The notes below the pieces were generated by a model that was not told the origin of the DNA, ran no database searches, and saw nothing but the letters and a program-made list of their open reading frames with translations. Shown in pieces: positions 31,079 to 52,865 of a stretch of DNA of 64,000 nt (positions within the stretch are counted from its first letter, which is position 1; each line of letters begins with the position of its first letter). This DNA is from a virus: the IMG/VR virus record IMGVR_UViG_3300043958_000214; one strand, 5' to 3'. Made by a program: the position numbers and the translations under genes.

Positions 31079-31151
31079 TTGGCGATCCCGGGCTCGAACC
31101 GGGGACCCTCTCCTCGTCGTGGAGATGCGCTACCGACTGCGCCAATCGCCA
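31079..31151 (-). tRNA. tRNA-Val(GAC)
   Basis: TCTCC ACGACGA GGAGA (C33, G37). Confidence 0.78.
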
Positions 31152-31333: not shown

Positions 31334-31418
31334 CGGAAGGTGCGGGAGTCGAACTCGCACGGGGTCTCCCCCACACCGCTTTCAAGGCGGCTGCCGGCGC
31401 CAATCGGCTGGACCTTCC
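31334..31418 (-). tRNA. tRNA-Ser(TGA)
   Basis: Loop CTTGAAA; long variable arm. Confidence 0.88.
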
Positions 31419-31421
31419 AAA

Positions 31422-31516
31422 GTGCCGCTGGAGGGAATGGGATGCCCTCCATCTTCACTGCGTGCCGCTGGAGGGAATGGGATGCCCTCCATCTTCACTG
31501 CGTGCCGCTGGAGGGA
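31422..31516 (-). repeat. 40-nt tandem repeats containing the tRNA-Arg(ACG) 3' end
   Basis: GTGCCGCTGGAGGGA (plus) at 31422, 31462, 31502 with identical linkers. Confidence 0.9.
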
Positions 31517-31576
31517 GTCGAACCCCCGACCTCGACGTTCGTAGCGTCGCACTCTATCCTGCTGAGCTACAGCGGC
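31503..31576 (-). tRNA. tRNA-Arg(ACG)
   Basis: CGACG CTACGAA CGTCG. Confidence 0.9.
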
Positions 31577-31619
31577 ATTGCGTCCGGGGACGAGCGAGGA
31601 TCCCCGGACAGTAGTCTCG

Positions 31620-32500: not shown

Positions 32501-32531
32501 CACGCCGGCTTATGCCCCCACGCGGGCATCG

Positions 32532-32603
32532 CACTCCCAGGGGGATTCGAACCCTCGTCGCCCGGCTGAGAACCGGGCGTCTTGACCACTGGACTATGGG
32601 AGC
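32532..32603 (-). tRNA. tRNA-Glu(CTC)
   Basis: CCCGG TTCTCAG CCGGG. Confidence 0.9.
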
Positions 32604-32608
32604 CTGCG

Positions 32609-32689
32609 TGCCGATCGAGGGACTTGAACCCTCACGCCCGAAGACACCAGCACCTCATGCTGGCGCGTCTGCCATTCCGCCAGATCGGC
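32609..32689 (-). tRNA. tRNA-Leu(GAG)
   Basis: CCAGC ATGAGGT GCTGG. Confidence 0.88.
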
Positions 32690-32720
32690 AATGCGGCGAT
32701 TCGGCGCGCCGCGCGCCTCG

Positions 32721-32802
32721 TACCGACTCCGGGGCTCGAACCCGGATGCCCGAAGGCACCGCCACCTGAAGGCGGCGCGTCTGCCAATTTCGCCAAGTCG
32801 GC
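32721..32802 (-). tRNA. tRNA-Leu(CAG)
   Basis: CCGCC TTCAGGT GGCGG. Confidence 0.9.
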
Positions 32803-32803
32803 A

Positions 32804-32875
32804 TGGTCGACGGTCTGGGAATCGAACCCAGCACGACCTCCGTGTAGGGGAGGCTTGCGTCCCAGCGTCCCGTCG
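32804..32875 (-). tRNA. tRNA-Val(TAC), atypical D-arm
   Basis: CCTCC CCTACAC GGAGG (C33); good T-arm; CCA encoded. Confidence 0.65.
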
Positions 32876-32924
32876 GATGGCGCGGAGGCCGTTGGAGGAG
32901 ATGGAGAGCCCCGACCTCCGCGCC

Positions 32925-32999
32925 TGGCATACCGACCGGGGTTCGAACCCGGATCTGCGGTGTTGGAGACCGCTGTTCTCACCGTTGAACTATCGGCAT
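32925..32999 (-). tRNA. tRNA-Trp(CCA)
   Basis: GCGGT CTCCAAC ACCGC; CCA encoded. Confidence 0.9.
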
Positions 33000-33026
33000 A
33001 GTGGGCACCGGCATCCCGGTGCTTTG

Positions 33027-33099
33027 TGCGCCCAGAGGGGTTCGAACCCTCGACCCGGAGCTTAAAAGGCAACTGCTCTACCAACTGAGCTATAGGCGC
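33027..33099 (-). tRNA. tRNA-Lys(TTT)
   Basis: Loop CTTTTAA; two mismatches in anticodon stem. Confidence 0.78.
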
Positions 33100-33116
33100 A
33101 AGAAACGTGAAGCCAG

Positions 33117-33190
33117 TACCCCGTCTGGGGATCGAACCCAGGACCCGACGCTTAAGAGGCGCCTGCTCTTACCGGCTGAGCTAACGAGGC
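33117..33190 (-). tRNA. tRNA-Lys(CTT)
   Basis: GGCGC CTCTTAA GCGTC. Confidence 0.9.
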
Positions 33191-33243
33191 ATGATGGAGA
33201 AGGAGAGGCGCGGCATTCGCCGCTCGCCCACCTGCTCACTGCG

Positions 33244-33315
33244 TAGCGCAGGCCGGATTCGGACCGGCATCTTCTGGCGTATGAGGCCAGTGTGTTCCCG
33301 TTACACCACCGCGCG
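33244..33315 (-). tRNA. tRNA with CAT anticodon (possibly initiator-like)
   Basis: CTGGC CTCATAC GCCAG; unpaired C1/U72 but no GGG/CCC stem. Confidence 0.78.
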
Positions 33316-33319
33316 TCAC

Positions 33320-33945
33320 GCCGGGCGCCGAGTCGCTGCGAGCGCTTTCGCTGCTCGAGTCTCGGCTGCGGGATAGCCCGCCACGTCCTGCCCCGGCGAC
33401 AGGAGGTTCCGGTATGCGTGTACTCGGCCGGACCCCGGTTTCCGTAGCCCGTCCGAGTACCGGGTGGGCGGCATGGCCCTCGGCGCGGGGCCCCGCGCCT
33501 TCGCTGCCCCGGCAGGCAGGACGACCTCCTCACTCATGTCACGCAAGCCGGACGAGGTCGGTTCCGGTCGCGCGGGCGGACGTTCCGCCGACCTCACCGC
33601 CGGCTTCCTGCCTGGCAATGAGGTGGAGTGTCCCGCGGTCCGTGCACGGCTCGCGGGGGTCCCGGATTCCGTTCGGCTCCGGTGGCCGGATCCCAAGGTT
33701 AGCGTCGCAGGTTGGTTGACGGGGAGGTTTGGCCTGGCCGTTCCCATGCACAGGGGTCCGCGTGGTGTCGTCACCGGACGTGTCCGCGCTTCCCCCTTCC
33801 TAGCCCCGATGACAGCCGGGGAGAGGGCGTTGAATGCACCCAGGGTATGACGGTCGCTGGGTGCCCCTCACCGCGCTCCGGGGCGGGATCAACCCGCCCT
33901 TGCGTCGCGCTCGGCTTCGCCGCGGGGCGAGAGGCCGAGGTCTCC
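33320..33945 (-). ncRNA. Candidate ~620-nt structured RNA
   Basis: No credible ORF; many stems (GTACTCGG/CCGAGTAC, GAGGTCGG/CCGACCTC, GGCGCGGGG/CCCCGCGCC). Confidence 0.4.
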
Positions 33946-33948
33946 ACG

Positions 33949-34029
33949 TGCCGGCTGAGGGGGTCGAACCCTCATGCCCGAAGGCGCTGGCTCCTAAGGC
34001 CAGTGCGTCTGCCATTTCGCCAAGCCGGC
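33949..34029 (-). tRNA. tRNA-Leu(TAG)
   Basis: CTGGC CTTAGGA GCCAG. Confidence 0.9.
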
Positions 34030-34156
34030 AGTTCCCGGGGATGAGGCGCGGCTGCCGGGCCAGCCTGAGGCGTGCGCCGGGGGCTACCGGGCGTCGTTTC
34101 CCACTCCGATTTGGGCGTCACCACAGGTGTGGGAGCGGCCTGGAGGCGGACGATCG

Positions 34157-34229
34157 TGGACCCACGGGGAATCGAACCCCGAACCCCCTGCTTGCAAAGC
34201 AGGTGCGCTACCGTTTGCGCTATGAGCCC
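34157..34229 (-). tRNA. tRNA-Ala(TGC)
   Basis: G3:U70; CCTGC TTTGCAA GCAGG. Confidence 0.9.
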
Positions 34230-34305
34230 AGCTTCCGGGTCCTCGGCATCGCGGGCGGTCGTCGCCGTGTGCATCCGCGACCCAGCGGCTTGAACGCTGG
34301 CCGGA

Positions 34306-34360
34306 CAGTGGAGCTGCGGGGAATGGAATACCCCTCGCTTCCAGTGGAGCTGCGGGGAAT
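34306..34360 (-). repeat. Duplicated tmRNA 3' end (19 nt)
   Basis: CAGTGGAGCTGCGGGGAAT (plus) at 34306 and 34342. Confidence 0.85.
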
Positions 34361-34691
34361 CGAACCCCGGTCCGAGATGGCAAGTCATTCAAGGATTTCA
34401 CGAGCGTAGGACGGCGAAGACTCCTGGGCGCGCCCGCGCCGTCCACGGCGCGCCCTCGTTTCCGATCATTGTCTCAACGCCGGGCCTGGTCGGTCGTCCC
34501 GTCGTCCAGTCGCACTACATGATGCCTGCCACCTGGGGGTGCGACCGCCCCGGTGCGGCACTCGTCACGCGGCGAGAATGAAGTTGTCGTTGGCAACTAT
34601 GGGTGCAGCGCCAGTTGTTGACGGGGGTGATGCTGCCTGCCCCGGCTCGACTTTCAATCATCGTTTCATCCCGTCGAAACCGATCAGCCCC
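34345..34691 (-). ncRNA. ssrA: tmRNA
   Basis: 5' GGGGCTGATCGGTTTCGAC; 3' T-arm and CAGCTCCA with G3:U70; tag ORF ANDNFILAA* at 34565-34594. Confidence 0.95.
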
Positions 34692-34720
34692 GATAGGGAT
34701 ACACCCTCAAGGTGCACCAG

Positions 34721-34803
34721 CGGAAGAAGGAGGTCTCGATCCCCAGCCCGATGGGCCAAGCCGCCTAGCAAACGGTTCCAGCCACCCGGCTGGTTCTTCT
34801 TCC
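34721..34803 (-). tRNA. tRNA-Ser(GCT)
   Basis: GGAAGAA/TTCTTCC acceptor; loop TTGCTAG; long variable arm. Confidence 0.75.
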
Positions 34804-34974
34804 ATGTGGGCGGGGACCGCTCGGCCCCCGCCCTAGTGTCGGCCGGCATGACACCGGCCGGTACCTCGGGATGGTGCCCGAGGCTGCTGCCCGCCATGTG
34901 GTGGCGGGCATGTTGTCTGTCCTCTGTGTAGTTCATCAAGATCATGTTGAGATCGGCTTGCGCCGAACCCTGCG

Positions 34975-35059
34975 CGGATCGAGAGGGAATCGAACCCCCG
35001 GGCCCTTTCAGACCGCCTGTATTCGAAGCAGGTCCCGGCTACCAACACCGGACCGATCC
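34975..35059 (-). tRNA. tRNA-Ser(CGA)
   Basis: Loop TTCGAAT; long variable arm. Confidence 0.82.
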
Positions 35060-35103
35060 ACTGACATCCGTCACCTATGCGTAGGCGGATGCCCTCGTAT
35101 GTA

Positions 35104-35114
35104 GTTGTGAGGCA
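35104..35114 (-). promoter_or_regulatory. Class-A motif core at head of tRNA array
   Basis: GCATG-N11-TGCCTCACAAC. Confidence 0.8.
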
Positions 35115-35143
35115 GTCGCGCGTGTCATGCACGGTCTTGCCGG

Positions 35144-35225
35144 TGGGAGATGAAGGACTCGAACCTCCGGTGTTTCCCCGTGCCCGATTTACAGTCGGGT
35201 GCCGTCGCCGCTGGGCCAATCTCCC
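35144..35225 (-). tRNA. tRNA-Tyr(GTA)
   Basis: CCCGA CTGTAAA TCGGG; long variable arm. Confidence 0.9.
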
Positions 35226-41095: not shown

Positions 41096-41649
41096 GCGAA
41101 GACATGGTCACTGTCGTCGCCCCAGGCGTCCCAGCCCGGCCGGCGCTCGCGGGCGAACATCTCCAGCTTTCGGGCGTGCGGGTAGAGGGCGTCGATGCGG
41201 CGTGCAACCTCGTCGGGCTTGCGTGAGTGCTCACGTTTGGGGGCAAGGACGACCTGGCGGACGGATTCCGAGGCGAGCGGGAGCGGACGACCCTTGGCGC
41301 GCGTGGAGGCGGCGAGGACGAACTCGGTGGTCGGCTTCACGATGGTGAGGCGCACGCCTTGGGCCCCGATAGGGGTGATGCCATCCGCCTTCGTCTTCAC
41401 CCAGACGAACGCCACTCCGCGGTAGTGGAGTCCCCACGACCGGATGCACTCCAGGGCGAAGTCGAGGCGCGGGCACGTGGCCCACAAGAACAACACGCCG
41501 GGGTCCGCCAATGCCACGTCGAGGGAGCGGAGGTCCTCATCCTCCATGAGCGCGTACTCCTTGCCGGCCGCGCCCATCTTGGTTGGGCTCCCGTAGTAGG
41601 TCCAGGGAGGGTCGGAGAGGATGACCGGATACGGGGCGCTCCATCTCAT
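41092..41649 (-). CDS. MT-A70-family adenine methyltransferase
   Basis: DPPW, LFLWAT, WVK, EHSRKP, LEMFAR. Confidence 0.9.
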   Translation of the reverse strand: MRWSAPYPVILSDPPWTYYGSPTKMGAAGKEYALMEDEDLRSLDVALADPGVLFLWATCPRLDFALECIRSWGLHYRGVAFVWVKTKADGITPIGAQGVRLTIVKPTTEFVLAASTRAKGRPLPLASESVRQVVLAPKREHSRKPDEVARRIDALYPHARKLEMFARERRPGWDAWGDDSDHVFA

Positions 41650-44600
41650 TCGTGGAGTCCCTTGAGGAAGTCGACGGCTGTGTCGAGCTTGGAGATGCGC
41701 CTTCCCCAGTCCTCCCCCAGGGCCCGCATGTAGAGCTTGCGGGTCTGCTCCGGGTAGGAGAAAACGCTGGCCGGTTTCTTCAACAGGCGCGGGTCGAGGA
41801 GGGCGACCATTCCCTTGTCGTTGCCCGAGCGGATGAGTCTGCCGGCGGCCTGCTCGACCAGTAGCGCCGCGTCGGCCACGTAGACCTGTCGGTCGGCACG
41901 CCACCGGTCGATCTTCTGGGCGCTCATCAGCGACTCCAGGCGGGCGTCATCCACCGGGTTCGATGGGGAGCGCGGGATCCGATCGATGATGACGAGACTG
42001 CAGGTGGTGCCCGGGGCGTCCACTCCCGTCATGAGGGATCGTGTTCCCACGAGGACAGCTGTCTCGTCGCTACGCCACCGTTCGACCAGCTCTCGAAGAG
42101 GGAGCCCGTCCCACTGGTCGAGGACGGTGAACATCCCTCCCGTACGGGTGCGCAGATACTCCGCGTAGGCCTTCCCGTCGCTTGATTTCGCGGCGAGGAC
42201 GAGGGCGCGTCCGCCGTTTGCTTCAACGAGTGCGGCGATCTTCGGGATCACCCAGGCGGCGTGACGCGACGTGTCGAGTTTGGGCTTTCCGGAGCGCGCC
42301 TGGGTCGCGGACAGGGCGGCGATGTCGGCGGGGTCGATCGCTCGCGGCACGTAGACGGCCGAACGCTTCCGCGCGACGTCGAAGGGCGAGGGGAAGCAGA
42401 TGACGCTCGCGTCAAGGCCCATTTCTCTGGCGAAACCCTGGGGAATGGTTGCGGACACGGCGACGACGCTCATCGGGTAGTAGACCTTGTCGCCTTCGGG
42501 CCCGACGTCACAGGAGATGTCGTCCTCGGCTTGGGCGCGGTCCCTGTCCTTGAGATCGTCTTCCACCTCTGGGGCGATCCACAGGTTCCGCTTGAGTGCT
42601 GCCGAGACGTTGACCGTCGAGTATCGCAGCGCCGCTTCATGGTCATTGCCTCGCCCCGCCTCGACCCAGCGGGCGACGCCCGGTGTGTGGGTACGGACTT
42701 GGTTGAGGTCGGAGAGCGCATTGTCGAACCGGGTGAGGACGCGCTTGACGGACATGTCGTTGCTATGGGCCTTCGTGGCCTGGACGATGAGCGCGCGGGC
42801 TTGGGTGAGCCAGGCCTCCATCGCGGATCCGAAATCTGCGGCGGGATCCTCGTCCTCCCCCACCTTATGGATGTCGCCATTGCGGACTTTCGCGTTCAGG
42901 GCCTTGTCGACCATCTGCGCGATCATGTCGCCGGCGTCTGCGATCTTATGGTTCTTCCCGAGTTCGACGGTGTGGGTGAGGGAGCGGGCGAGGGAGCGGA
43001 TGCGGCGTCCCGTCACTTCACCGGCACCCTGGTTTCGGACTTGGCTGGGCATGCCGTGCGCCTCGTCCATGACGATGGCGTCGAAGTGGCCGAGGGTTTT
43101 CGAGCCTGTGACCGCGGGGACGCCGTTGGCCGCTTCAACGGCTAGAAGCGTGTGGTTGGTGACGACGACATCCGCCTCGGCGGCGGCCACCTTGGCTCGC
43201 GCTGCCTTGCACCGGTCGGCGAACGGGCACTTCTTGACCCCGATGCATTCCGCCGGCGTCACGGAGACGGACGCCCAGTCCGCGCCGTTGGAGACCCCGG
43301 TGTAGGAGTGCCGGTCGCCTTTCAGAGCCGGGTCGCTGTATTGGTCGAGGGCCCAGGCGACCAGCATCTCTTGCTGCCCTCCACGCTCACGGAGCCTCCC
43401 CGCCATCTTCTCGTCTGGCTCCTCTTTTCCCTCCTTGATCCTGAGGATCTTGTGGGCGGTCTCGCGGGCGGCGACCAGACAGGCGTGGTTCGACCAGCCC
43501 TTGAGGACCGCGACCTTCGGGGCGGTACCGGGGACGACTTGGCTGACTGCCCGCGTGACGACGGGCGCGTCCTTGTCGACGAGCTGAGACTGGAGAGACA
43601 GTGACTCGGTGGAGACGACCGTGCGTTTGCCGTCCACGGCTGCTGCCAGCGCCGCCGGCACGAGGTACGCCAGCGAGTTATGCGTGGGGACGCAGGACGT
43701 CCCGGCGAGGAACAGGTGGGTGGGGGACTTCACGGTGATGCAACGCACCGGGACCGGTTCGACTTTTTCGACGCGGATGATGTGCAGTCCTTGCGCGCCA
43801 GTGTTCGCAGCGCGATTGAGCTCTGCGGCTTTGTCTGGGCAGCGGAAGACGCGGATGCCACCGTGGTTGAACGCCAGACGTGCGTTCCTCCCCCATCTCG
43901 ACCGGCTGACGTGGATCCCGAAGGTGGCGAGAAGTTGGAGAACGGACTCGGTGAATGCGCGAGAGGGATGGGCGAAGAGGCAGGTTTCGCCTGTCGCCTC
44001 GACTTGGTCGACGGCGCCAGCGACGTCCATGATCCCCTGGAGCAGCGCCAGCCTTTGGACCGTAGAGGCCCGGAGGTAGGAGTGGGGGATCTCGAGAGAG
44101 TCCGGCTGAGCGGCGAGGCGCTGGCCTAGCCGGTAGGGATCCAAGGGCAGTCGGGCGTCGGGAAGGACCATCGGCAAGGTGGGGACGAGGAGGGAGACGT
44201 TCGTTCGCCGCCCGAGGTCTTGGGTGCGGGTGATCACCCTGTTGACCTCAGCCAGGTCCTCCTGGCCGAGTAGCCTGATCGCCTCGTCCAGGACGTCCGC
44301 CGGGGCCACCATGATGGGGTTTGGCAGTCGCCCTCCGATGAGCCGTTCAACGTCCTCCGGCGAGGCGTTGCCGGACAACTCTGACTCGTCGGCTCCGGCG
44401 AGTCGGGCGATGCCGAGGATACTTGTCGCTTCCGCGACAGTCGATCCCGCCAGTCTGGTGAGGCGTTCCAGCGAACCGGCTTCCCGCAAAGTCGATCCTG
44501 CGGCGTTCTCGATGACCTTCACTGGGAGCAGGCGCGCTATCGTCACCCCTGCAGCCTCGGCGAGAACGGCCATGGGGAGGGCGCCCCGGCAGTCCTCATA

Positions 44601-45101
44601 CAGGTCCAGGACGTTGACTTTTGTCCGCTCCGCATCTGCGGCGTAGGCGTCACGGACCTCCCGGCAGATCTCGACCCTGCTCCTCGTATCAGCGGCATCG
44701 GGGATGGTGGGCCACAGGTGCTCACCTGAGGCGATGATCCACGACCCGTCAGAGAAGGTGAGGCGAAAACACTCACGATCCCGGACGATGCGGTGGGCGA
44801 CGCTGACGGTGACGACGGAACCGAACTCGTCGAACACCTCGTCCCCCCGCTTCAGTTCCCCCATCAGTGCCCACCCCGTGGGGTGCTTCGCGCTGATGGG
44901 GACCGGGATCGGGGTCGTGACCGCCAGCGCCTTCCCGGTCCCGGTTCCGGCTTGCCCGATGGCCTGCCCGCCCGGGTGGTTGAGAGCGCGGGCGACCTCT
45001 TGGGCGAGTTCAAGCTGGGCGGGGCGGGCATGGGAGTCTGGATCGCCGGTGATCAGCTGGACCGCGCGGTCCATAGCGTTGATGAGGAGTTCTGGCTTCA
45101 T
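41646..45101 (-). CDS. dinG: DinG-family helicase containing an intein
   Basis: QAGTGTGK|SLAYL, Fe-S cysteines, DEAH, SAT, EQAAGRLIR. Confidence 0.9.
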   Translation of the reverse strand: MKPELLINAMDRAVQLITGDPDSHARPAQLELAQEVARALNHPGGQAIGQAGTGTGKALAVTTPIPVPISAKHPTGWALMGELKRGDEVFDEFGSVVTVSVAHRIVRDRECFRLTFSDGSWIIASGEHLWPTIPDAADTRSRVEICREVRDAYAADAERTKVNVLDLYEDCRGALPMAVLAEAAGVTIARLLPVKVIENAAGSTLREAGSLERLTRLAGSTVAEATSILGIARLAGADESELSGNASPEDVERLIGGRLPNPIMVAPADVLDEAIRLLGQEDLAEVNRVITRTQDLGRRTNVSLLVPTLPMVLPDARLPLDPYRLGQRLAAQPDSLEIPHSYLRASTVQRLALLQGIMDVAGAVDQVEATGETCLFAHPSRAFTESVLQLLATFGIHVSRSRWGRNARLAFNHGGIRVFRCPDKAAELNRAANTGAQGLHIIRVEKVEPVPVRCITVKSPTHLFLAGTSCVPTHNSLAYLVPAALAAAVDGKRTVVSTESLSLQSQLVDKDAPVVTRAVSQVVPGTAPKVAVLKGWSNHACLVAARETAHKILRIKEGKEEPDEKMAGRLRERGGQQEMLVAWALDQYSDPALKGDRHSYTGVSNGADWASVSVTPAECIGVKKCPFADRCKAARAKVAAAEADVVVTNHTLLAVEAANGVPAVTGSKTLGHFDAIVMDEAHGMPSQVRNQGAGEVTGRRIRSLARSLTHTVELGKNHKIADAGDMIAQMVDKALNAKVRNGDIHKVGEDEDPAADFGSAMEAWLTQARALIVQATKAHSNDMSVKRVLTRFDNALSDLNQVRTHTPGVARWVEAGRGNDHEAALRYSTVNVSAALKRNLWIAPEVEDDLKDRDRAQAEDDISCDVGPEGDKVYYPMSVVAVSATIPQGFAREMGLDASVICFPSPFDVARKRSAVYVPRAIDPADIAALSATQARSGKPKLDTSRHAAWVIPKIAALVEANGGRALVLAAKSSDGKAYAEYLRTRTGGMFTVLDQWDGLPLRELVERWRSDETAVLVGTRSLMTGVDAPGTTCSLVIIDRIPRSPSNPVDDARLESLMSAQKIDRWRADRQVYVADAALLVEQAAGRLIRSGNDKGMVALLDPRLLKKPASVFSYPEQTRKLYMRALGEDWGRRISKLDTAVDFLKGLHE
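43677..44930 (-). other. Class 3-type intein (418 aa) in the DinG P-loop
   Basis: Starts Ala; HLW (block B), VRCITV (F), PTHN/S (G); LAGLIDADG remnant LQGIMDVAG. Confidence 0.88.
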
Positions 45102-45105
45102 GCCT

Positions 45106-45115
45106 TGTGTGTGCC
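45106..45115 (-). promoter_or_regulatory. Class-B motif (dinG)
   Basis: GGCACACACA-AGGC-ATG. Confidence 0.65.
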
Positions 45116-45281
45116 TGGGCGGGGGCGGGAAGCGAACCGGATGGTTCGCGGCGGGTGGTGCCGGGAGCCCGATCGCGTTCAACCGCCTTTTCGCGCATTC
45201 GGGCTCCCGGCGGCGGGACCGTGGTTCCGCCGGAGGCCGCGCACCACCCCTGAGCGGTCTCCACCCGCATCTATGCGTAGG

Positions 45282-46490
45282 TCAGTACCATCCGGTGTTC
45301 TGGGAGTGGGCCCAGGCTGCTTGCGGGGATCCGTAGCGCCCGGCGATGTAGTCCATCATCCAGGCCAGTTGCGTGCGCGGGTTGGTGGCCCAGTCCGACC
45401 CATGGCTGCTCATTTTGGACCCGGGGAGCGCTTGGGGGAGCCCGTAGGCGCCGGAGGGGTTCGAGGCTGTCACGGACCATCCCGACTCCCTTGCGACGAG
45501 GGCGTTGAAGGCGTCCCACTGCTGCGCCCACCCGCGCTCAGCGAGCATGCCGAAAGCCAGGTCCTGGACCTGAGTGCTTGGCGTCTGTGTGGGGCCGACT
45601 CCTTCTGCGGGGTCGGGCTGTTTCGTTCCGACCGCGATTTCCTCGGTGATGGGTGCGGTCGTCTCGACGGATTCGACGGCGCGGTGAGTGACCTGCCCGT
45701 CGACTCGCTCCTCCCACACGGTTGTGCGGGTTTCGCCGTCGGCCCCCTGTTGGACGATTTCCTCCTGTCCTGTGGGAAGGGTCGGGTCCTCGTGGCGGTG
45801 GGTGGAGTGCGGTGTGGAGTCGACGTGGACGCGCGTCCCCCGGTCGACGCGCGTGAGCGTGAGGGTGAGGGTCGTGCGGTCGAGCGTGGCGTGGATCCTG
45901 TCGTTGGGGGAAGCGTCGATTCCAGCTTTAGTCAGGAGGGTCTGGGCGGAGTCTCTGGGTGTGGCATCGATGTGTGTCTCTTCGCCGTCTGAGAGGATCG
46001 TGACGGTTTCCGTGTCCGCGACGAGGGGAATCTCGGTGCGGGCTTCTCCCCTGGTGGGGATCGCCTGGGCTTGCCCGCTGTCCGTGACCGACTGTGCGAG
46101 TTCGCGGATGGAGTCCGCGGTCGACCAGACTTCGATCGTCCTATCACCGTTGGTAGCGGTGTGGGGGCGGGCGTGGCGCACGATGATCGAGATTCCATCG
46201 CTGGCGGGACTGGCCGGTGCAGGGGCGACGAGATCATGGTCCCCGGTTTCGACTCCTGCGGCGGACAGGACGTCTCCGACACTCCGGTAGAACCCGGCGG
46301 CAGGAGTGGTGACACCGTCGACTTCGAGGGTCACGGAGTGGTATGAGGAGACGGACGACGCGGTGGCGACGCCGATGATGAGGGCGGCGGAGGCGAGCGA
46401 GGAGACAAGGACGCGGTGCTTGTCCTTCGCCCGGCGTCGTGCGGCTCCTCGCTCCGCACGGGACGGGAGGGGAACCCGGCTATCGGACAC
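45282..46490 (-). CDS. Secreted DUF348/G5 lytic transglycosylase (Rpf-like architecture)
   Basis: N-terminal TM, G5-like segment, ESGW..NPSGAYGLPQA. Confidence 0.85.
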   Translation of the reverse strand: MSDSRVPLPSRAERGAARRRAKDKHRVLVSSLASAALIIGVATASSVSSYHSVTLEVDGVTTPAAGFYRSVGDVLSAAGVETGDHDLVAPAPASPASDGISIIVRHARPHTATNGDRTIEVWSTADSIRELAQSVTDSGQAQAIPTRGEARTEIPLVADTETVTILSDGEETHIDATPRDSAQTLLTKAGIDASPNDRIHATLDRTTLTLTLTRVDRGTRVHVDSTPHSTHRHEDPTLPTGQEEIVQQGADGETRTTVWEERVDGQVTHRAVESVETTAPITEEIAVGTKQPDPAEGVGPTQTPSTQVQDLAFGMLAERGWAQQWDAFNALVARESGWSVTASNPSGAYGLPQALPGSKMSSHGSDWATNPRTQLAWMMDYIAGRYGSPQAAWAHSQNTGWY

Positions 46491-47166
46491 GGCGCCCCCC
46501 GCGTCGTCCTTTAACTGCGTTGCGCAGTTCTGGGGACAGCGCCAGCTCGTGGGATCGGCCCATGGGCTGTGAGGCGACGATGTAAGCGTCGGCGAGCGGG
46601 TCGGGCGCCCTCCCCAACCGGGTTCCGGGTGCACAGAGCTCCTGGCAAATGTCTGGGGCTGGCTCTGCGGAGGCAACGTGTCCGGTGGCGGGGATGGAGA
46701 GCCACGGGTCCCCCACCGCATGGGGCCCGTCAACGTCGAGGACGCAGTTCATCGCGACCGCCTCAAGGCCACCGGCGTCGGCGATCAGGGTGTGGAGGGG
46801 CTGGTAGTTCAACGTCTGGGGGAGCATGTCGCCGGCGAGGAGGATCCGGTCGGCGGGCCCGTAGGGCGGGCACCTCAAGGGGATCCGGTGGCGTCCGGCG
46901 ACTGAGCAGGCGATCTTCGCCATCGAAGATGCCTTGAGATAGTAGGCCCCCTTCACTTCGACCCACAGTCCCAGTCCGGGGAGGAAGAAGTCGGGCAGGT
47001 AGCTCATCTTGCGTGTGACCCGGTAGAGGCAGGGCTCGTAGTCCCAATCCCATCCGACGCAGTCGAAGAAGAGAGCCCACCTGGCCTCCAGCCTGCTCCT
47101 GAATGTGACGCCGGAGTAGGCGGTGGATGCCGCCCCCGTCTTCGCGGTGACCGTTCTGGATCCCAT
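46480..47166 (-). CDS. PD-(D/E)XK nuclease-like protein
   Basis: FRSRLEARWA, YLPDF, WVEVKG. Confidence 0.8.
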   Translation of the reverse strand: MGSRTVTAKTGAASTAYSGVTFRSRLEARWALFFDCVGWDWDYEPCLYRVTRKMSYLPDFFLPGLGLWVEVKGAYYLKASSMAKIACSVAGRHRIPLRCPPYGPADRILLAGDMLPQTLNYQPLHTLIADAGGLEAVAMNCVLDVDGPHAVGDPWLSIPATGHVASAEPAPDICQELCAPGTRLGRAPDPLADAYIVASQPMGRSHELALSPELRNAVKGRRGGRRVR

Positions 47167-47168
47167 CC

Positions 47169-47651
47169 TCAGCGCCTCCTCGGACGCGGCGTGCGGGGGT
47201 GGTTGGGGGACGGCTCGTTCTTCGTCCGATCCTCCCTTCTGGGGGTGACGAGGACGGCCTTGCCCAAGGAGGGAGCCGCCTGCCCGACGACCGACCCGGC
47301 AGGGAGGCTCTTCGACCAGCGGGGGCGCGACTCAACCCACCAAGACCGCCAGAGGACCCATGCGCCTCCCATGACGATGACGCCCCACAGGTAGGCGGGG
47401 TCCGTCCAGGAGACGAGGACGATGAGGGCGACCCACCGGTAGGTCCTTCGCCACGACCCCGGAACGAGGAGGCAGGTTGCCACCCAGGGCGCGGACAGTC
47501 CGGCGAGCATCCACCCGACGCCATGGGGCGTCGCGTAGACGATGACCGATGCGGCCCACACCGTCGAGACGAAGAGAAGAACGAGGAACCACCCGCAATC
47601 GGGCGCGATCGCCTTCACCCGACGAGCCGCACCGTGCAGGGCCTCACTCAT
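47169..47651 (-). CDS. Membrane protein
   Basis: Several hydrophobic segments. Confidence 0.7.
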   Translation of the reverse strand: MSEALHGAARRVKAIAPDCGWFLVLLFVSTVWAASVIVYATPHGVGWMLAGLSAPWVATCLLVPGSWRRTYRWVALIVLVSWTDPAYLWGVIVMGGAWVLWRSWWVESRPRWSKSLPAGSVVGQAAPSLGKAVLVTPRREDRTKNEPSPNHPRTPRPRRR

Positions 47652-48981
47652 GGATCAAGTTCCCATCCAGAAGGTCCTCTTCGCTCACGACCGGCACGTA
47701 ATCGAGAAGGATCGTGCGCAGGTACTCCGCGACCGTCGTCGGGTCAGACCCGAGGGGCGCGCCCTCCCACGCTGCAGCCCGCTCGAGACGGCTCCCCCAA
47801 GCCCGCCTGGCTTCTTCCGCTTCCCGCCTCAGCTGCTCGTTGCGATCCTGCTGCTTGCGGTGAACGGAGTAGGGGCTGACCGTCTCGCATTCGATGGCAA
47901 CGAGCGAGTCGACGAGGTCGAGGCACAGGGAGGCCCACTGCTTGTCGTGGGGGTCCCCGGTCTTTACGACGGCCCGGATCAACGCCGCCATCCGCCTGGC
48001 GGGCGGACGCGGCAGATCCTCCACGGCGGCGGCGACCAGCCCGTTGCACAGGGCATCACCCATCCCGATGACAGTCGTGAGCGCATCATCGTCCCACCCG
48101 TCCCACACGGCCTCGATGACGGGGTGGGTGACCTTACCGGTTAACACGTTGCGCGCGCACTGACGCGAGAGCGTCGTGTCCTGGGCGATCATCGTCCGGA
48201 CGCGGGCGCGGGCCTCAGGACTGGACAAACGCCTGGTTTCTGGGAGTCCGAAAGCCGCCCTGGCCGCCGCGGCCGCGAAATGGACCCTGCGGGCGCCTCT
48301 CATCCGCCCGAAGGCTGCGGCACCCAAGGTCGCCAGGATGTTGTCGATCCTGATTGTGTCGGTCTTGTCCATCAACTCCGTATGAACGTCGGGAGCGTCC
48401 ACGCTGAACGACGACACGGCAGAGACCAGGGGGAGGTCGGATGGATCCGTCGCGTCCTGATGGCGTGAGAAGGCCCGCCTCTCGTCGCGGATCAGCTGCA
48501 GGGCCGCCCATGACGCTTTGTGGAAGGCGTAGGACGAGAACTTGGCTTGCTGGACGCTTCCATCGGGCTGGACAGACATTCTGAAGAAGTCGTACCCGCC
48601 CTCTGCGAGCGGGGTGAGGATGGCGGACACGAGTTTCTCGATGACCCTGTCGCGCACCTCCTCAAGCTCCCAGTCCTTGATGGGACCCATGTCGAACCCG
48701 CCAACCGAGCCATGTCCGCTCGAAGAGCCGTCATAGTGGGCTCGATGATGTTTGGCGTTGGGACGGAACTGTCGGGCGCGGACCGCGATCGCTGGGACGT
48801 CGTAGCGCATGGTCTCTTCGGCGAGGCGGATCCGGGCTTCACGGTCGGAGATCTCCCCCGCTTTCAGGAGGGAGCGCACCTCCTCAGCCTTCTCGTCGAG
48901 CTTGCGAGCGGCCTGATGCGAATCACAGGGAATGAACCCCATGACGGGGATATCGGTGTCGAAGTTTATGCTGTTCCTCAC
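47644..48981 (-). CDS. Putative sigma-factor-like protein
   Basis: LEEVRDRVIEKLVSAI and AKFSSYAFHKASWAALQLIRDERR resemble sigma70 regions 2.2-2.4; GTG start 7 nt after class-A motif. Confidence 0.5.
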   Translation of the reverse strand: MRNSINFDTDIPVMGFIPCDSHQAARKLDEKAEEVRSLLKAGEISDREARIRLAEETMRYDVPAIAVRARQFRPNAKHHRAHYDGSSSGHGSVGGFDMGPIKDWELEEVRDRVIEKLVSAILTPLAEGGYDFFRMSVQPDGSVQQAKFSSYAFHKASWAALQLIRDERRAFSRHQDATDPSDLPLVSAVSSFSVDAPDVHTELMDKTDTIRIDNILATLGAAAFGRMRGARRVHFAAAAARAAFGLPETRRLSSPEARARVRTMIAQDTTLSRQCARNVLTGKVTHPVIEAVWDGWDDDALTTVIGMGDALCNGLVAAAVEDLPRPPARRMAALIRAVVKTGDPHDKQWASLCLDLVDSLVAIECETVSPYSVHRKQQDRNEQLRREAEEARRAWGSRLERAAAWEGAPLGSDPTTVAEYLRTILLDYVPVVSEEDLLDGNLIHE

Positions 48982-48988
48982 AATGCCT

Positions 48989-48999
48989 GTTGTGGGGCA
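48989..48999 (-). promoter_or_regulatory. Class-A motif core upstream of sigma-like gene
   Basis: GCGCG-N11-TGCCCCACAAC-N7-GTG. Confidence 0.75.
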
Positions 49000-49025
49000 A
49001 CCGCAAACCCCGCGCACGTGGGCCC

Positions 49026-52000
49026 TTAGCGCCCGGCCTCGGCGTTCTTGAGCCTCCCCGCCTTCTCCTGCTCGCGGGCGATGACGTCGGTGGAGGTGGT
49101 GGAGATCTGGGAGAGGAAGTCCTTCGGAATCAGGATCTGGGTGGGCACGACCCGGTCTGACAGGTCGACGTACAGCCCGATGGCCCCCCTGATGACCTCC
49201 CCGGTTTCCGCGTCGCGCAGGGCTCGCATCGAATTCCAATTGGGTTCCTGTGACCCCTCGATCGTGGCAGGGGCCGACAACCGGGCCAGGCGCTGCTCTG
49301 TTGCTTGGAGCTTGAAAAGCTGGAGGGCGAGACCCGCTTCGCCATTGTCCGTGTTCCCGAACCGGTCCTTCTGCCCCGTGCCACGTCCAAGGGGAAGAAT
49401 CACCCCGCGGCTGATCCCGCCGAGAAGATCAGCCTCGACAAAGTCCGAGACCTTCTGGGAGGCGAGGACCACGAGAACCTGCTGGGAGCGAGCCAGCCGG
49501 GAAAGACGGTCAAGTTCGGCCTTGCCTTCCGGGCCGATCATGAACTGCCACGCCTCGTCAAGGACGACGACGCCCTCCCGGTAGGCGACAGCAGCCGCAG
49601 ACCCGTACACCATCATGCGCAGAACCCACGACCCGATGCGTTGGATCATGGAGGACCGCTGCCACCCGCCCTCCCCCGTATCCGGAAGAGCGATCCGAGC
49701 ATTGCCGACCATGATCAGCGACAGCCCCTCCGCCTGCCGGAGAGCCTGCCCATTCGGCGAAAACCCGAGGATCGCGCGGGCCAACGGAGTGGCCTCCAAC
49801 ATCCGCAAGATGGGCGTGAGCAACCCGTCAGGCAGAGGCGTCGCAGCGTCCGAGATACGCAAAGCCTCACCCACACAGGTCCCACCGTGCTCAACCCCGT
49901 ACCGCAGCGCCGAAAGCAGGTCGACCTCGAAACGCCCCCGCAGGTCCCCACCCCACGGATCGATGGAAGAGATCATCTGAGAAGCCAGCTCCACCGCCTC
50001 TCCGATCGTGTTCGCGAAAGACTCCGGACTCGTACGGTCAATGAGGGTGCGAATCGGGTCGAACACGCCATCAGCGGACGCGAGATCATCCAAACTCATC
50101 ACTTGCCCGCCAAGCTTGCGCACCGGCTCAGAGAAATCAGACCCCGGTTTCGCATCAATCATCACGATCGGCGTCCGCCACCCACGCGAGGTTGGAATAT
50201 GGGCCCACTGCCTGACAAGGGAAAGGAGAGTCATCGTGTTGTGAGAAGGAACGAAGCCCTCGACCAAATACGTATGGTCCGGGGAATCCACGGACAAGCA
50301 CCGACAGGCCCGCGGCGCAACCGCCTCAATCCCCGTGATGCCGAGACGCAGCTGATCCTCCCCCACCGACCTGGGAACAAGCCGCGCCTTCTCAGCCACA
50401 CGGAAGACAGTTTCAACAGTCGTGAAACCCACCCGGTAGCACATGCCCACACGGTGCCCGGCATCCGCTTCGGCAATACTCATCGACGCCTTGATCCCGA
50501 GACCGCGAACCAGCTCAAGGACATCCCCCGCCAAACCCTCACCCTCCACAGCGAGCTCGCATTCCCCGCCATGCCCAACCCTCCCCCTCTCATCCATGAG
50601 ACCCTGGAGAAGAGCGAGCCGCTGCGCCCGCGAGGCGCGCTGATAGATCGCAGGGATGCGATCACCGACTGGAACGCCGACCGAACCCCCCGCAGCACAC
50701 TCCCCGCCCAGCCACACGCCCAGAGAATACGGATCCACCGGAAGAACCGCGTCAGGGAGATCGAGCGCTCGCGGGAGCCTGATCGAGAAGTTCGCGCAGA
50801 CGTTGTCGCCTTCGCGCACGCTCACTCCCTGGTCGAGCATCTCCCCCGTTGACATGACGACTTCTCCTGGGTCCAGGCTTGGCTCGTCCGCGTGCTGCTG
50901 CTGGACGCGGATGGCGAGGCCTCGGATAGCCGCCTTGGTGGAGTAGACGAGGGGGCGATACCGCATCGCCGCGACAGGATGTTCGGCGGATGGGCGCGGA
51001 TGCCGACCGTCTCGGACATTCCGCTCGGCCCCGGTAGGGACGGACCGGGGCGCCACGTCCACCATGCGCAAAGACGCGTGGATCCCATTTGGGCCTCTCC
51101 AGGGGGTTGCGTCGATGTCGTTGACGATCTCCCACAGGTCTTCCAGGGCGGAAAGGTGCTCGTCGTCATAGTCGTCAGCCAGGTCGCAGAGCCGCCACGC
51201 GAGGTCACGCGCCTCCCGGCTCGTCTCGACGCAGTGGCGGGAAGGGGATGGATGGGGCTGGGCGCGCCGACGGACCACCCACTGGTGATTCGAGTCGGCG
51301 TCGATGTGTTGTCCGTCTGAGAGCGTGAGGCGGTACAGGTGGGGCTTGCGTTCGATGGCGGACAGGTCGGTGACCCGGCATGGGCGCCCATCGCGCCCGA
51401 GCACTTCGTCGCCGACATTGAGCTGTCCGACGGTCGTCCAACCGGTGGGTGTGGGGATGCGCGTCGTCAGCGCAAGCAGCTTCCCCGACCCCGTTCCTCC
51501 GGCGACGACAAGGAGCGGACCTCCGTCGCCTTTCGTTGCAGCGAAGGGGGAGATGTAGGCGGGCTGCTGGTCAGCCTCCGTCAGGCCGAGAAGGGCTCCG
51601 CTCGTGTCCCCCACGGTCGACAGGTTCGCCAGTCCGGCGCACGCGATGGTCTGGGCCGGGAGTTCGTGAACCCTGGGGGCGGCCTTGACGTTGGAGCAGA
51701 GTTTCATCTCCTCGAAAGCCGCCTGCTGGCGTGCGGGAAGCGCTCCGAGGTGGATCGAAGAGTCTCCCATGAGCCTGCCGACGTCCTTTTGGACCCGGTC
51801 GAGGGCGACGACGATGGAGGTATCGATGAGGGTGGGTGTCCCCCCTTGGGTTCCGTAGGCGGCCTCGACTTGGGAGAGGATCTCGATCTGCTGGTCTTGC
51901 TCAGCCTTAGACATGAGCCCCTGGGCAACGCGGTCCTCACGATCTTTGCGGAAATTGTCTCGCCCCCGAGCGAGTTCGGCGCGGGTGATTTGGGCTGGTT

Positions 52001-52865
52001 CGATCTTGCCGCGAATGCTGATCGCCCGGGCTCCCTTGAGGACGAGGTCGATTCCCCACTGGGCTCTGGCAGAGGTGGCGTCGATCCAGGGGAGGTCGAA
52101 CTCGGCCGCCGAGGCGAGAGTGAGCGCATAGGCCTGGGAAGGTAGTCTCCAGTTTTCGCATTCTGCGGGGTCCATGTCTGCGGCCATCTGGGCGGCTGAG
52201 ATGGTCCGGCAGACGTGGATGTGGTCGTCGTGGAGGAGGATCGGGACGTCTGGCGTGTCGCCGAAGTTCCACCACCCGCGGGCTAGGGCGAGCTCGTCTC
52301 GGCCGAACGTGTCGACGCCGAGTTCCCGCATGCCCGCCTGGCGGAAGATGGCGTCAACGACCTGGTAGTCGTCCTCGAAGTCCTCGACCGGAATGCCGCC
52401 GGTGAGGAACGTCTCCGACACGGACTCGACCGCGGACGCCACTCTTCCCTTGCCTGCCCTGGTCATCTTGGGGAGGAGTCGTGTCCCCACGAGGAGAAGC
52501 CTCCGGAACGTGTACTCATCGCCGTAGTCGCGTGTGAGCATGTCGGCGTTCGGGAGGCCGTGGTTGGGCTTGAGGGGGGTCGGAATATTGAGGAGGAGCA
52601 GGTGCAGGTCGCGGTAGGAGTCGCGATTGAACTGGCGGCGTTTCCCGGTTGTGTGCGCGAGGGCGGCCAGCTGCTCCATGACGCGGAGGATCGGGACGGA
52701 CGCTTCGAGGACCTTCTGGGAGTCGCGGGCGTCCTGGATGGGGGACAACGGGGCTGCGCGGTAGCACCACATGCTGGAGTTTTTCGGCCCGACCAGTCTT
52801 CCCCCGTCGAGGACGCGGCTGATCAGGGTGGTGCCCTGGGGGGCGGCAGTCAGAATCTCACTCAT
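49026..52865 (-). CDS. VirB4/TraC-like conjugation ATPase containing an intein
   Basis: GGTGSGK|TMTL, VVVLDEAW, LARSQQVLVVLASQ. Confidence 0.8.
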   Translation of the reverse strand: MSEILTAAPQGTTLISRVLDGGRLVGPKNSSMWCYRAAPLSPIQDARDSQKVLEASVPILRVMEQLAALAHTTGKRRQFNRDSYRDLHLLLLNIPTPLKPNHGLPNADMLTRDYGDEYTFRRLLLVGTRLLPKMTRAGKGRVASAVESVSETFLTGGIPVEDFEDDYQVVDAIFRQAGMRELGVDTFGRDELALARGWWNFGDTPDVPILLHDDHIHVCRTISAAQMAADMDPAECENWRLPSQAYALTLASAAEFDLPWIDATSARAQWGIDLVLKGARAISIRGKIEPAQITRAELARGRDNFRKDREDRVAQGLMSKAEQDQQIEILSQVEAAYGTQGGTPTLIDTSIVVALDRVQKDVGRLMGDSSIHLGALPARQQAAFEEMKLCSNVKAAPRVHELPAQTIACAGLANLSTVGDTSGALLGLTEADQQPAYISPFAATKGDGGPLLVVAGGTGSGKLLALTTRIPTPTGWTTVGQLNVGDEVLGRDGRPCRVTDLSAIERKPHLYRLTLSDGQHIDADSNHQWVVRRRAQPHPSPSRHCVETSREARDLAWRLCDLADDYDDEHLSALEDLWEIVNDIDATPWRGPNGIHASLRMVDVAPRSVPTGAERNVRDGRHPRPSAEHPVAAMRYRPLVYSTKAAIRGLAIRVQQQHADEPSLDPGEVVMSTGEMLDQGVSVREGDNVCANFSIRLPRALDLPDAVLPVDPYSLGVWLGGECAAGGSVGVPVGDRIPAIYQRASRAQRLALLQGLMDERGRVGHGGECELAVEGEGLAGDVLELVRGLGIKASMSIAEADAGHRVGMCYRVGFTTVETVFRVAEKARLVPRSVGEDQLRLGITGIEAVAPRACRCLSVDSPDHTYLVEGFVPSHNTMTLLSLVRQWAHIPTSRGWRTPIVMIDAKPGSDFSEPVRKLGGQVMSLDDLASADGVFDPIRTLIDRTSPESFANTIGEAVELASQMISSIDPWGGDLRGRFEVDLLSALRYGVEHGGTCVGEALRISDAATPLPDGLLTPILRMLEATPLARAILGFSPNGQALRQAEGLSLIMVGNARIALPDTGEGGWQRSSMIQRIGSWVLRMMVYGSAAAVAYREGVVVLDEAWQFMIGPEGKAELDRLSRLARSQQVLVVLASQKVSDFVEADLLGGISRGVILPLGRGTGQKDRFGNTDNGEAGLALQLFKLQATEQRLARLSAPATIEGSQEPNWNSMRALRDAETGEVIRGAIGLYVDLSDRVVPTQILIPKDFLSQISTTSTDVIAREQEKAGRLKNAEAGR
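50238..51479 (-). other. Class 3-type intein (414 aa) in the ATPase P-loop
   Basis: Starts Leu; HQW (B), CRCLSV (F), PSHN/T (G); LAGLIDADG remnant LQGLMDERG. Confidence 0.85.

What the first reader, a model, noticed from the sequence alone, without database searches (positions are those of the whole stretch)
47644..48999. Candidate element-encoded sigma-like factor carrying its own target motif
Seen: 445-aa ORF with LEEVRDRVIEKLVSAI..GGYDFF..AKFSSYAFHKASWAALQLIRDERR, aligning by eye with sigma70 regions 2.2-2.4 (EDLxQE..; KFSTYAxWWIRQAI); a class-A motif lies 7 nt before its GTG. The C-terminal half is not obviously region 4. Inference: the specificity factor for the 21-site promoter, forming a positive-feedback switch for the element programme.
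Basis: inference. Interest (0 to 1): 0.72.

Follow-up and report, generated by a model that had tools for sequence, protein, structure and literature searches.

The report
Divergent sigma-like protein of actinobacterial megaplasmids
A gene on a roughly 190-kb actinobacterial plasmid-like element encodes a very divergent relative of bacterial sigma factors: it keeps the RNA-polymerase-binding, promoter-melting domain but carries a new 240-residue tail, and it may let such plasmids run their own promoters, though that role is untested.

Summary
A 445-aa gene (47644-48981, minus strand, GTG start) lies 7 nt downstream of a class-A box (TGCCCCACAAC, 48989-48999).

The sigma resemblance seen by eye is real. 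In the AlphaFold model, residues ~8-179 fold like sigma domain 2: 24 of the 30 best solved chains are sigma factors, at modest Z of 5.5-7.5. Weak sequence signals agree and sit in register with regions 2.2-2.4. No curated sigma model reaches its threshold.

An acidic disordered linker follows (residues 176-205, net charge -7). Then comes a confident helical domain of 240 residues with no detectable sigma region 3 or 4 and no known fold.

The family has 69 cluster representatives, no Pfam, NCBIfam or PHROG model, and no name. It is a conserved backbone gene of Micrococcales megaplasmids such as pACHL01. There it sits after a VirB4-like ATPase and overlaps a small membrane-protein gene.

In all seven lineages examined, the lineage's own leaderless-promoter box lies 7-9 nt before a GTG: the called start in four, an in-frame GTG I propose as the start in three.

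Nothing shows that this protein reads the 21-site promoter. A second sigma-like gene on the element and canonical sigma genes on related plasmids are rivals.

The scan had already proposed cryptic sigma factors for private megaplasmid promoters on other DNA.

The parts
47644..48981 (-). CDS of the sigma-like protein (445 aa plus stop), GTG start
   Evidence: start conserved in P0003; model pLDDT 85
48457..48924 (-). sigma domain-2-like region (residues ~20-175: a region-1.2-like helix, a 2.2-like D-L helix, an F-D turn, a 2.3/2.4-like helix ending in invariant R165)
   Evidence: VIA-align: 24 of the top 30 chains are sigma factors, Z 5.5-7.5; profile against sigma sequences and decoys; column conservation
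48676..48765 (-). disordered insertion of about 30 residues (73-102), present only here and in P0003
   Evidence: alignment A2; pLDDT about 50
48367..48456 (-). acidic disordered linker (residues 176-205, net charge -7)
47647..48366 (-). conserved all-helical C-terminal domain (residues 206-445) with no known fold and no detectable region 3 or 4
   Evidence: model pLDDT 94; fold searches; profile against sigma sequences at noise level
48989..48999 (-). class-A box TGCCCCACAAC (-10-like element), 7 nt before the GTG
49010..49017 (-). upstream half GTGCGCGG of the bipartite promoter (-35-like position), just after the stop of the ATPase gene
   Evidence: GTGCRYGA at -23 to -16 from the core; G and C present in 20 of 21 sites
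47169..47651 (-). 160-aa polytopic membrane protein whose start overlaps the sigma-like gene's stop by 8 nt; conserved partner
   Evidence: the same overlap arrangement occurs on pACHL01, the zg-Y1110 plasmid and pYJN5-1
49026..52865 (-). upstream VirB4-like (AAA_10) ATPase with an intein; conserved neighbour

Best explanation
The gene encodes a highly diverged member of the sigma-70 superfamily. It has three parts: an N-terminal sigma-2 domain, an acidic flexible linker of about 30 residues, and a new 240-residue helical domain where region 4 would normally be. The sigma-2 domain has a region-1.2-like helix, a region-2.2-like acidic D-L helix that would dock on the beta-prime clamp helices, and a region-2.3/2.4-like helix (S-x-x-G-[W/Y]-A-R ... 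R-D-x-R-R) that would hold the melted -10-like element. The linker resembles the sigma-2 to sigma-4 linker of ECF sigmas. The most likely function is an element-encoded alternative sigma that recruits host RNA polymerase core to the element's private, mostly leaderless promoters, including its own. The overlapping small membrane protein would be a partner or regulator. Shown: the fold, family conservation, synteny, and a box upstream of the gene in every lineage examined. Inferred: RNA polymerase binding, promoter specificity, any DNA or beta-flap contact by the C-terminal domain, and autoregulation.
For: Fold. Residues 8-179 match sigma domain 2 in 24 of the 30 best chains out of 48,161 (pro-sigmaK Z 7.5; RpoS region 2, Z 7.2, 94 of 96 residues at 3.4 A; SigE N-domain, Z 7.0, 80 of 80 at 2.8 A). 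The C-terminal domain of the same protein returns only mixed helical bundles, which serves as an internal control.

Sequence. The N-terminal family profile scores 10.5, 6.6 and 5.5 bits on an ECF sigma, RpoS and a sigma-like plasmid protein, all aligned on region 2.3/2.4. Of 2613 shuffled decoys, 0 reach 10.5 bits and 6 reach 6.6. The only NCBIfam model hit by more than one family member is TIGR02937 sigma70-ECF, and one member hits Sigma70_r2 weakly. The nearest named ESM Atlas clusters are phage Sigma70_r2 proteins. The highest-probability rows in the viral fold library are phage sigma factors.

Motifs. Position 108 is always acidic (61 of 61) and is followed by L/V/I. An F-D-L turn follows, then an aromatic residue at 151 (60 of 62) exactly 14 residues before R165 (56 of 61), the same spacing as W-x13-R in ECF and sigma-70 region 2.

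Linker. It is disordered with net charge -7.

Promoter. The class-A sites are bipartite with sigma-like geometry. Two of them head tRNA genes with no start codon, so the box acts in transcription, not translation.

Conservation. A lineage-specific box lies 7-9 nt before the GTG of the homologue on pACHL01, pYJN5-1, the Arthrobacter zg-Y1110 plasmid, a metagenome-assembled contig and two Curtobacterium plasmids. For the zg-Y1110 and Curtobacterium genes that GTG is an in-frame start I propose upstream of the annotated one.
Against: No curated sigma model reaches its threshold. hhalign against a small sigma alignment found nothing. Foldseek gave no significant PDB match. Z of about 7 is modest for a helical domain. 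No region 4 or helix-turn-helix was found, and the C-terminal domain is slightly acidic (net charge -3), which is unusual for a DNA-reading head. The partner membrane protein has no recognisable anti-sigma domain. The gene sits in a conjugation/DNA-processing backbone, which would also suit a non-transcriptional role. Another sigma-like gene and canonical sigma genes exist on this element family.
Confidence: 0.45

Rival explanations
1. It is a genuine sigma-like factor but not the reader of the class-A box. The box would be read by the leader-tagged sigma-like protein encoded elsewhere on the element, by a canonical plasmid or host sigma, or by the two together. This protein would be one member of the box regulon and would serve another promoter class, for example a later transfer or establishment stage.
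For: The class-A promoter has a conserved -35-like half, which a canonical region 4 could read and for which this protein shows no helix-turn-helix. About a third of the genes in the window carry the box, so a box in front of this gene is not specific.
Against: The box core (CACAAC, CACACAG or CATAG) is not the TANNNT that housekeeping sigma-A reads (own knowledge). This protein is a universal backbone gene wherever the box system was seen.
Confidence: 0.2
2. It is a sigma-2-derived RNA-polymerase-binding modulator rather than a promoter-specificity factor. It would dock on the clamp helices to displace or block host sigma, or tether polymerase near the membrane or transfer machinery through its partner, biasing transcription toward the element.
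For: The clamp-helix-facing D-L helix is the best conserved sigma-like feature. In this copy the aromatic residue that is W in 49 of 62 members is Y. There is no DNA-reading second domain. A conserved membrane partner is present.
Against: The region-2.3/2.4-like helix, with its aromatic residue and invariant arginine, is conserved across the family, which suggests it is still used for DNA.
Confidence: 0.15
3. It is unrelated to transcription. On this reading it is a helical component of the conjugation/DNA-processing backbone (next to a VirB4-like ATPase and coupled to a membrane protein), and its resemblance to sigma-2 is a common helical arrangement.
For: Conserved position between the VirB4-like ATPase and a DinG-like helicase. 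Z stays under 8, hhalign found nothing and Foldseek was not significant.
Against: Sigma factors fill 24 of the top 30 rows while the C-terminal domain of the same protein gets none. Independent sequence, language-model and motif signals all point to sigma region 2. The Curtobacterium homologues lie outside any conjugation context.
Confidence: 0.15

Closest known systems
ECF (group 4) sigma factors, e.g. E. coli RpoE, M. tuberculosis SigE/SigH/SigL, S. coelicolor SigR/ShbA
   Same: Same sigma-2 fold (Z 5.2-7.0). D-L helix and W-x13-R spacing are shared. A flexible linker follows sigma-2. The gene carries what may be its own promoter and is followed by a co-transcribed membrane protein. The only sub-threshold curated hits are ECF models.
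   Different: It has an extra region-1.2-like helix. It has no sigma-4; a 240-residue domain of unknown fold stands in its place. The partner is a polytopic membrane protein of about 150-160 aa without an anti-sigma domain. No curated threshold is met.
SigI-type sigma factors with RsgI anti-sigma (Clostridium thermocellum; PMC10575876, PDB 8i24)
   Same: A sigma-70-family member whose domain organisation departs from the canonical one (abstract of PMC10575876), paired with a membrane protein gene. By my own knowledge its C-terminal domain differs from canonical region 4. SigI6 matches the sigma-2 part (Z 5.8).
   Different: No match between the C-terminal domain here and the SigI C-terminal domain was seen. 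The host phylum differs. RsgI is a single-pass sensor with a defined anti-sigma domain.
Phage T4 gp55 late sigma (PMC7892883, PDB 7d7d)
   Same: A highly diverged sigma-2-only homologue that binds the clamp helices through acidic residues and reads a -10-like element without region 4. Chain F of 7d7d, probably gp55, matches at Z 7.2 with 125 aligned residues but rmsd 6.0 A.
   Different: gp55 is 185 aa with a helix-loop-helix and needs gp33 and the gp45 clamp. The protein here has a large extra domain, and its candidate promoters do have a -35-like half.
SigN (ZpdN) of Bacillus subtilis plasmid pBS32 (PMC6751061)
   Same: [quoted passage not shown] This is the functional model for a plasmid-private transcription switch.
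   Different: By my own knowledge SigN is a recognisable sigma-70-family protein. It belongs to a different phylum. No sequence relation was tested here.
Leader-tagged sigma-like protein of the same element and of pACHL01-type plasmids
   Same: A second divergent sigma-2-bearing protein without region 4 on the same plasmid family. It is also a candidate reader of the box.
   Different: It carries the shared N-terminal leader peptide and hits Sigma70_r2 near the cut-off. It scores only 5.5 bits against this family's profile, so the two are not close paralogues.

Membership tests
sigma-70 superfamily | Sigma domain-2 fold (regions 1.2/2.1-2.4 helical bundle) | tested here: met
   AlphaFold model pLDDT 85. 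VIA-align: 24 of the top 30 chains are sigma domain 2, with near-complete coverage of isolated sigma-2 structures (94/96, 80/80 and 77/78 residues at 2.8-3.4 A). Z is only 5-7.5.
sigma-70 superfamily | Match to curated region-2 models (Pfam PF04542, NCBIfam TIGR02937) above their cut-offs | tested here: not met
   No hit for this protein even at E<=10. Among 62 family members, one weak PF04542 hit (E 0.036) and two weak TIGR02937 hits (best E 0.0024).
sigma-70 superfamily | Region 2.2 D-L acidic helix and region 2.3/2.4 aromatic residue followed by arginine, in order and spacing | tested here: met
   Position 108 is D or E in 61/61 and is followed by L/V/I. F-D-L lies at 130-132. Position 151 is aromatic in 60/62. 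R165 is present in 56/61, 14 residues after the aromatic. Profile alignments to RpoS and an ECF sigma fall on this stretch, and decoys score lower.
sigma-70 superfamily | Region 4 (4.2 helix-turn-helix reading -35 and binding the beta flap) | tested here: inconclusive
   No sigma-3 or sigma-4 chain appears among the matches of the C-terminal model. The C-terminal profile against sigma sequences is at noise level. Residues 248-323 were barely sampled by the fold searches.
sigma-70 superfamily | Binds RNA polymerase core and confers promoter-specific initiation | not testable with these tools
   Needs pull-down and in vitro transcription, or complex modelling that was not available here.
ECF sigma / anti-sigma pair | Co-transcribed transmembrane anti-sigma factor with an N-terminal anti-sigma domain | tested here: inconclusive
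   A membrane protein gene overlaps the stop codon in all Micrococcaceae plasmids examined. It has only about 20 cytoplasmic residues before the first hydrophobic segment and no Pfam hit.
T4 gp55-type sigma | Small sigma-2-only protein with a C-terminal helix-loop-helix and a sliding-clamp-binding motif | tested here: not met
   The protein has 445 aa including a 240-aa extra domain. Only the sigma-2 part matches chain 7d7d_F.

The most novel reading that the evidence does not exclude
This would be the founding member of a new sigma class private to actinobacterial megaplasmids. Sigma-2 reads the CACA-type -10 box of leaderless promoters. The new C-terminal domain replaces region 4 and reads the GTGCRYGA half at -35. 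Box spelling and recognition helix co-evolve between plasmid lineages. The overlapping polytopic membrane protein gates the factor, coupling plasmid gene expression to the state of the neighbouring VirB4-type transfer machine.
Probability: 0.15. Interest if true: 0.85.

Novelty: new variant of a known kind. Interest (0 to 1): 0.62.

Why it matters
Large actinobacterial plasmids repeatedly show private promoter codes in front of leaderless genes and tRNA arrays, with no known reader. It has an orthologue on pACHL01 of the culturable Pseudarthrobacter chlorophenolicus A6, so the question can be tested directly by pull-down, in vitro transcription and deletion with 5'-end mapping. If it is a working sigma, its 240-residue tail would be a further solution to promoter recognition without region 4, alongside SigI and gp55. 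It would also show plasmids insulating their transcription from the host much as phages do.

Tried and rejected
- **Family libraries:** Pfam, NCBIfam, PHROGs and PADLOC gave no hit on the protein. A family profile against PDB sequences found only a designed helical protein at E 0.6.
- **hhalign:** N- and C-terminal family alignments against a 10-sequence sigma alignment gave no hit. That target profile was thin (Neff about 4).
- **Foldseek:** PDB and BFVD searches gave no row at E<=0.001. The weak Thermus sigma-A rows also appear for the C-terminal model alone and vanish on VIA re-alignment, so I do not count them.
- **C-terminal domain:** ESM Atlas scores were about 0.81, at noise level. Weak DnaA domain IV rows (Z 4.5) were not pursued.
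- **Fused relatives:** The longer family members showed no informative extra domain.
- **Related DNA:** Two related-loci scans with the close alignment found nothing in genomes or metagenomes.
- **Flagellar-sigma idea:** I considered it for the Curtobacterium copies and rejected it, because a FliA-like Sigma70_r2 ORF lies nearby on that plasmid.
- **Box as translation signal:** Rejected, because two boxes precede tRNA genes.
- **Box versus recognition helix:** Seven homologues are too few to test co-variation.

Full report
**The observation**

Read on the minus strand, the 44-nt gap after the stop of the upstream gene (TAA, 49028-49026) holds four elements in order:
- GTGCGCGG at 49017-49010
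- ten bases of spacer
- TGCCCCACAAC at 48999-48989
- AGGCATT (7 nt), then the GTG

The finding's end coordinate is therefore the 5' edge of the box. The start is supported by the 60%-identical homologue P0003, which aligns from residue 1. The strict box G[CT][CA][CTG]CACAA[CG] occurs 21 times on the gene strand and never on the other strand.

**What kind of protein it is**

No Pfam, NCBIfam, PHROG or PADLOC model matches. An exhaustive phmmer search found 69 cluster representatives at E<=1e-3, mostly of about 340-440 aa. None of those scanned has a significant Pfam domain, and none of the ten looked up has a name.

With 62 of them as alignment, AlphaFold gives a confident model (pLDDT 85). Its layout is:
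- helices at 21-41, 46-59 and 62-71
- a disordered insertion at 73-102, present only here and in P0003
- helix 103-122
- a small hairpin
- helix 148-175
- a disordered stretch at 176-205
- a 12-helix C-terminal domain

**The N-terminal domain**

An all-against-all structural search over 48,161 representative chains placed sigma factors in 24 of the 30 best rows. They include pro-sigmaK, RpoS, sigma-32, HrdB, SigE, SigB, SigW, WhiG, RpoE, Thermus and Taq sigma-A domain 2, ShbA, CnrH, sigma-70, SigI6, SigH, SigL, and chain F of the T4 late complex.

Coverage of isolated sigma-2 structures is almost complete:

| Structure | Residues aligned | rmsd |
|---|---|---|
| RpoS region 2 | 94 of 96 | 3.4 A |
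| SigE N-domain | 80 of 80 | 2.8 A |
| SigR N-terminal fragment | 77 of 78 | 2.8 A |

The Z-scores are modest (5.5-7.5), and the tool warns that helical models reach such values by chance. What counts is the make-up of the list. The same protein's C-terminal domain, folded alone (pLDDT 94), returns only a mixture of unrelated helical bundles and no sigma chain.

Independent weak signals agree:
- **Profile search:** the N-terminal profile aligns to an ECF sigma of a Curtobacterium plasmid (10.5 bits), to E. coli RpoS (6.6) and to a sigma-like plasmid protein (5.5). All three alignments fall on region 2.3/2.4. Of 2613 shuffled or reversed decoys, none reaches 10.5 bits and six reach 6.6.
- **Control:** the C-terminal profile scores at noise level against the same sigma sequences.
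- **Curated models:** across the family, the only NCBIfam model hit by more than one member is TIGR02937 sigma70-ECF, and one member touches Sigma70_r2.
- **Language model:** the nearest named ESM Atlas clusters are small phage Sigma70_r2 proteins.
- **Viral folds:** the highest-probability rows in BFVD are phage sigma factors.

Column statistics show the sigma region-2 landmarks in order:
- position 108 is always acidic (61/61) and is followed by L/V/I, like the D-L of region 2.2
- an F-D-L turn follows
- an aromatic residue at 151 (60/62) lies exactly 14 residues before R165 (56/61), the W-x13-R spacing of ECF and sigma-70 region 2.3/2.4 (the reference spacing is from my own knowledge)

Set against this, hhalign with a thin sigma alignment found nothing, and Foldseek was not significant. 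I rate sigma-2 homology at about 0.8.

**The rest of the protein**

The linker 176-205 is disordered and carries a net charge of -7. This resembles the acidic sigma-2 to sigma-4 linker of ECF sigmas and the sigma finger (own knowledge).

The C-terminal 240 residues are the best conserved part of the family. Conserved features include R-M-R-G, two arginines, P-R-P, E-C-E and P-L-G. No fold or sequence link to region 3 or 4 was found, though residues 248-323 were barely sampled. The domain is slightly acidic overall. What the tail does is unknown.

**Context**

tblastn places the family on seven Micrococcales megaplasmids of 375-608 kb, from Pseudarthrobacter, Arthrobacter, Paenarthrobacter and Curtobacterium.

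On pACHL01, the Arthrobacter zg-Y1110 plasmid and pYJN5-1, the gene order matches the window:
- a protein of about 350 aa
- a VirB4-like AAA_10 ATPase (37-47% identical to the window's, which also carries an intein)
- this gene (24% identical)
- an overlapping membrane protein of about 148 aa (38% over its core)
- a DinG-like helicase

On pACHL01 and the zg-Y1110 plasmid the locus extends further, to a methylase or other genes and then an SNF2 helicase. On a 79-kb metagenome-assembled contig the same order holds from the 350-aa protein through this gene.

The window's partner protein has three to four hydrophobic segments and only about 20 residues before the first one. It is therefore not a classical anti-sigma factor.

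The two Curtobacterium copies lie elsewhere, just after a flagellar cluster and csrA.

**The promoter link**

The 21 class-A sites are bipartite. GTGCRYGA lies at -23 to -16 from the core, with its G and C present in 20 of 21 sites, followed by TGCCTCACAAC. In about half of the sites a start codon follows 5-7 nt later. With transcription starting at that codon, the two halves fall near -35 and -10.

Two sites stand in front of tRNA genes of the 38-tRNA array, with no start codon. The box is therefore a transcription signal.

Every homologue examined is preceded by its own lineage's version of the box:

| Lineage | Box and spacing |
|---|---|
| pACHL01, pYJN5-1, zg-Y1110 plasmid, MAG contig | CCGCACAC, 9 nt, GTG |
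| Curtobacterium plasmids (two) | CCGCATAGG, 7 nt, GTG |

On the zg-Y1110 and Curtobacterium plasmids the GTG is an in-frame candidate start upstream of the annotated one.

Box spelling differs between lineages, which fits a private, co-evolving reader. Related plasmids also carry canonical Sigma70_r2 ORFs and the leader-tagged sigma-like gene, which earlier notes found on this same element. The box precedes roughly a third of the genes in the window. Seven homologues are too few to test co-variation of box and recognition helix.

**Verdict**

I commit to the following reading: a divergent, element-encoded sigma-family protein that most likely directs host polymerase to the element's private promoters (0.45).

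The rivals are:
- it is a sigma for another promoter class, while another factor reads class A (0.2)
- it is a polymerase-binding modulator (0.15)
- it is a non-transcriptional backbone protein (0.15)

The closest known analogues are ECF sigmas, SigI (PMC10575876), T4 gp55 (PMC7892883) and the self-activating plasmid sigma SigN (PMC6751061). The protein fails curated membership thresholds and lacks a detectable region 4, so I file it as a new variant of a known kind.

The scan had already proposed cryptic sigma factors for private megaplasmid promoters on other DNA. I could not check whether those belong to the same family.

Noticed in passing
window 27018-35225 (minus strand): An array of 38 tRNA genes plus a tmRNA. 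Class-A boxes at about 35333 and 35109 stand in front of tRNA-Tyr and tRNA-Ser with no start codon.
   Followed up: partly
window, the 21 class-A sites: The promoter is bipartite: GTGCRYGA lies at -23 to -16 from the C of CACAAC, with its G and C present in 20 of 21 sites. Three sites (about 19985, 20820, 21883) are followed by a GC hairpin and a Shine-Dalgarno sequence rather than a leaderless start.
   Followed up: partly
L002, L003, L019, L020, L001, L018 and their records W01-W05: Box spelling differs by plasmid lineage. It is CCGCACAC-N9-GTG on pACHL01, pYJN5-1 and a MAG contig; CCGCACACAG-N6-ATG many times on the Arthrobacter zg-Y1110 plasmid; CCGCATAG-N8-RTG on the Curtobacterium plasmids.
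   Followed up: partly
L003:12019 versus annotated start 12094; L018:8866 versus 8983; L001 about 11270 versus 11389: The annotated starts of three homologues look too far downstream. An in-frame GTG 7-9 nt after a box lies 75 or 117 nt upstream (L001 was read by analogy with L018), with no stop codon in between.
   Followed up: partly
L001 and L018 (Curtobacterium megaplasmids): Family members sit directly after a complete flagellar gene cluster and csrA, outside any conjugation context.
   Followed up: no
window 49029-52865 and 41649-45182: Both the VirB4-like ATPase and the DinG-like helicase carry inteins. In the ATPase the intein is inserted right after the P-loop GTGSGK. The pACHL01 orthologues lack them, but the pYJN5-1 helicase is also about 1187 aa.
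   Followed up: partly
window 45285-47166: A G5/DUF348 lytic transglycosylase and a phage-type endonuclease-like gene lie between the membrane partner and the helicase. They are absent at this place on pACHL01-type plasmids.
   Followed up: no
window 5317-5533: Four direct repeats with a 61-nt period that look like type I-E CRISPR repeats (core CCCCACGCGGGTGGGGAAC).
   Followed up: no
W01:378959, W02:355549, W01:357536, W02:268732: Related megaplasmids carry strong canonical Sigma70_r2 ORFs. About 13-14 kb from the target homologue they also carry the leader-tagged sigma-like gene (N-terminus with the PxGGQFA-type leader).
   Followed up: partly
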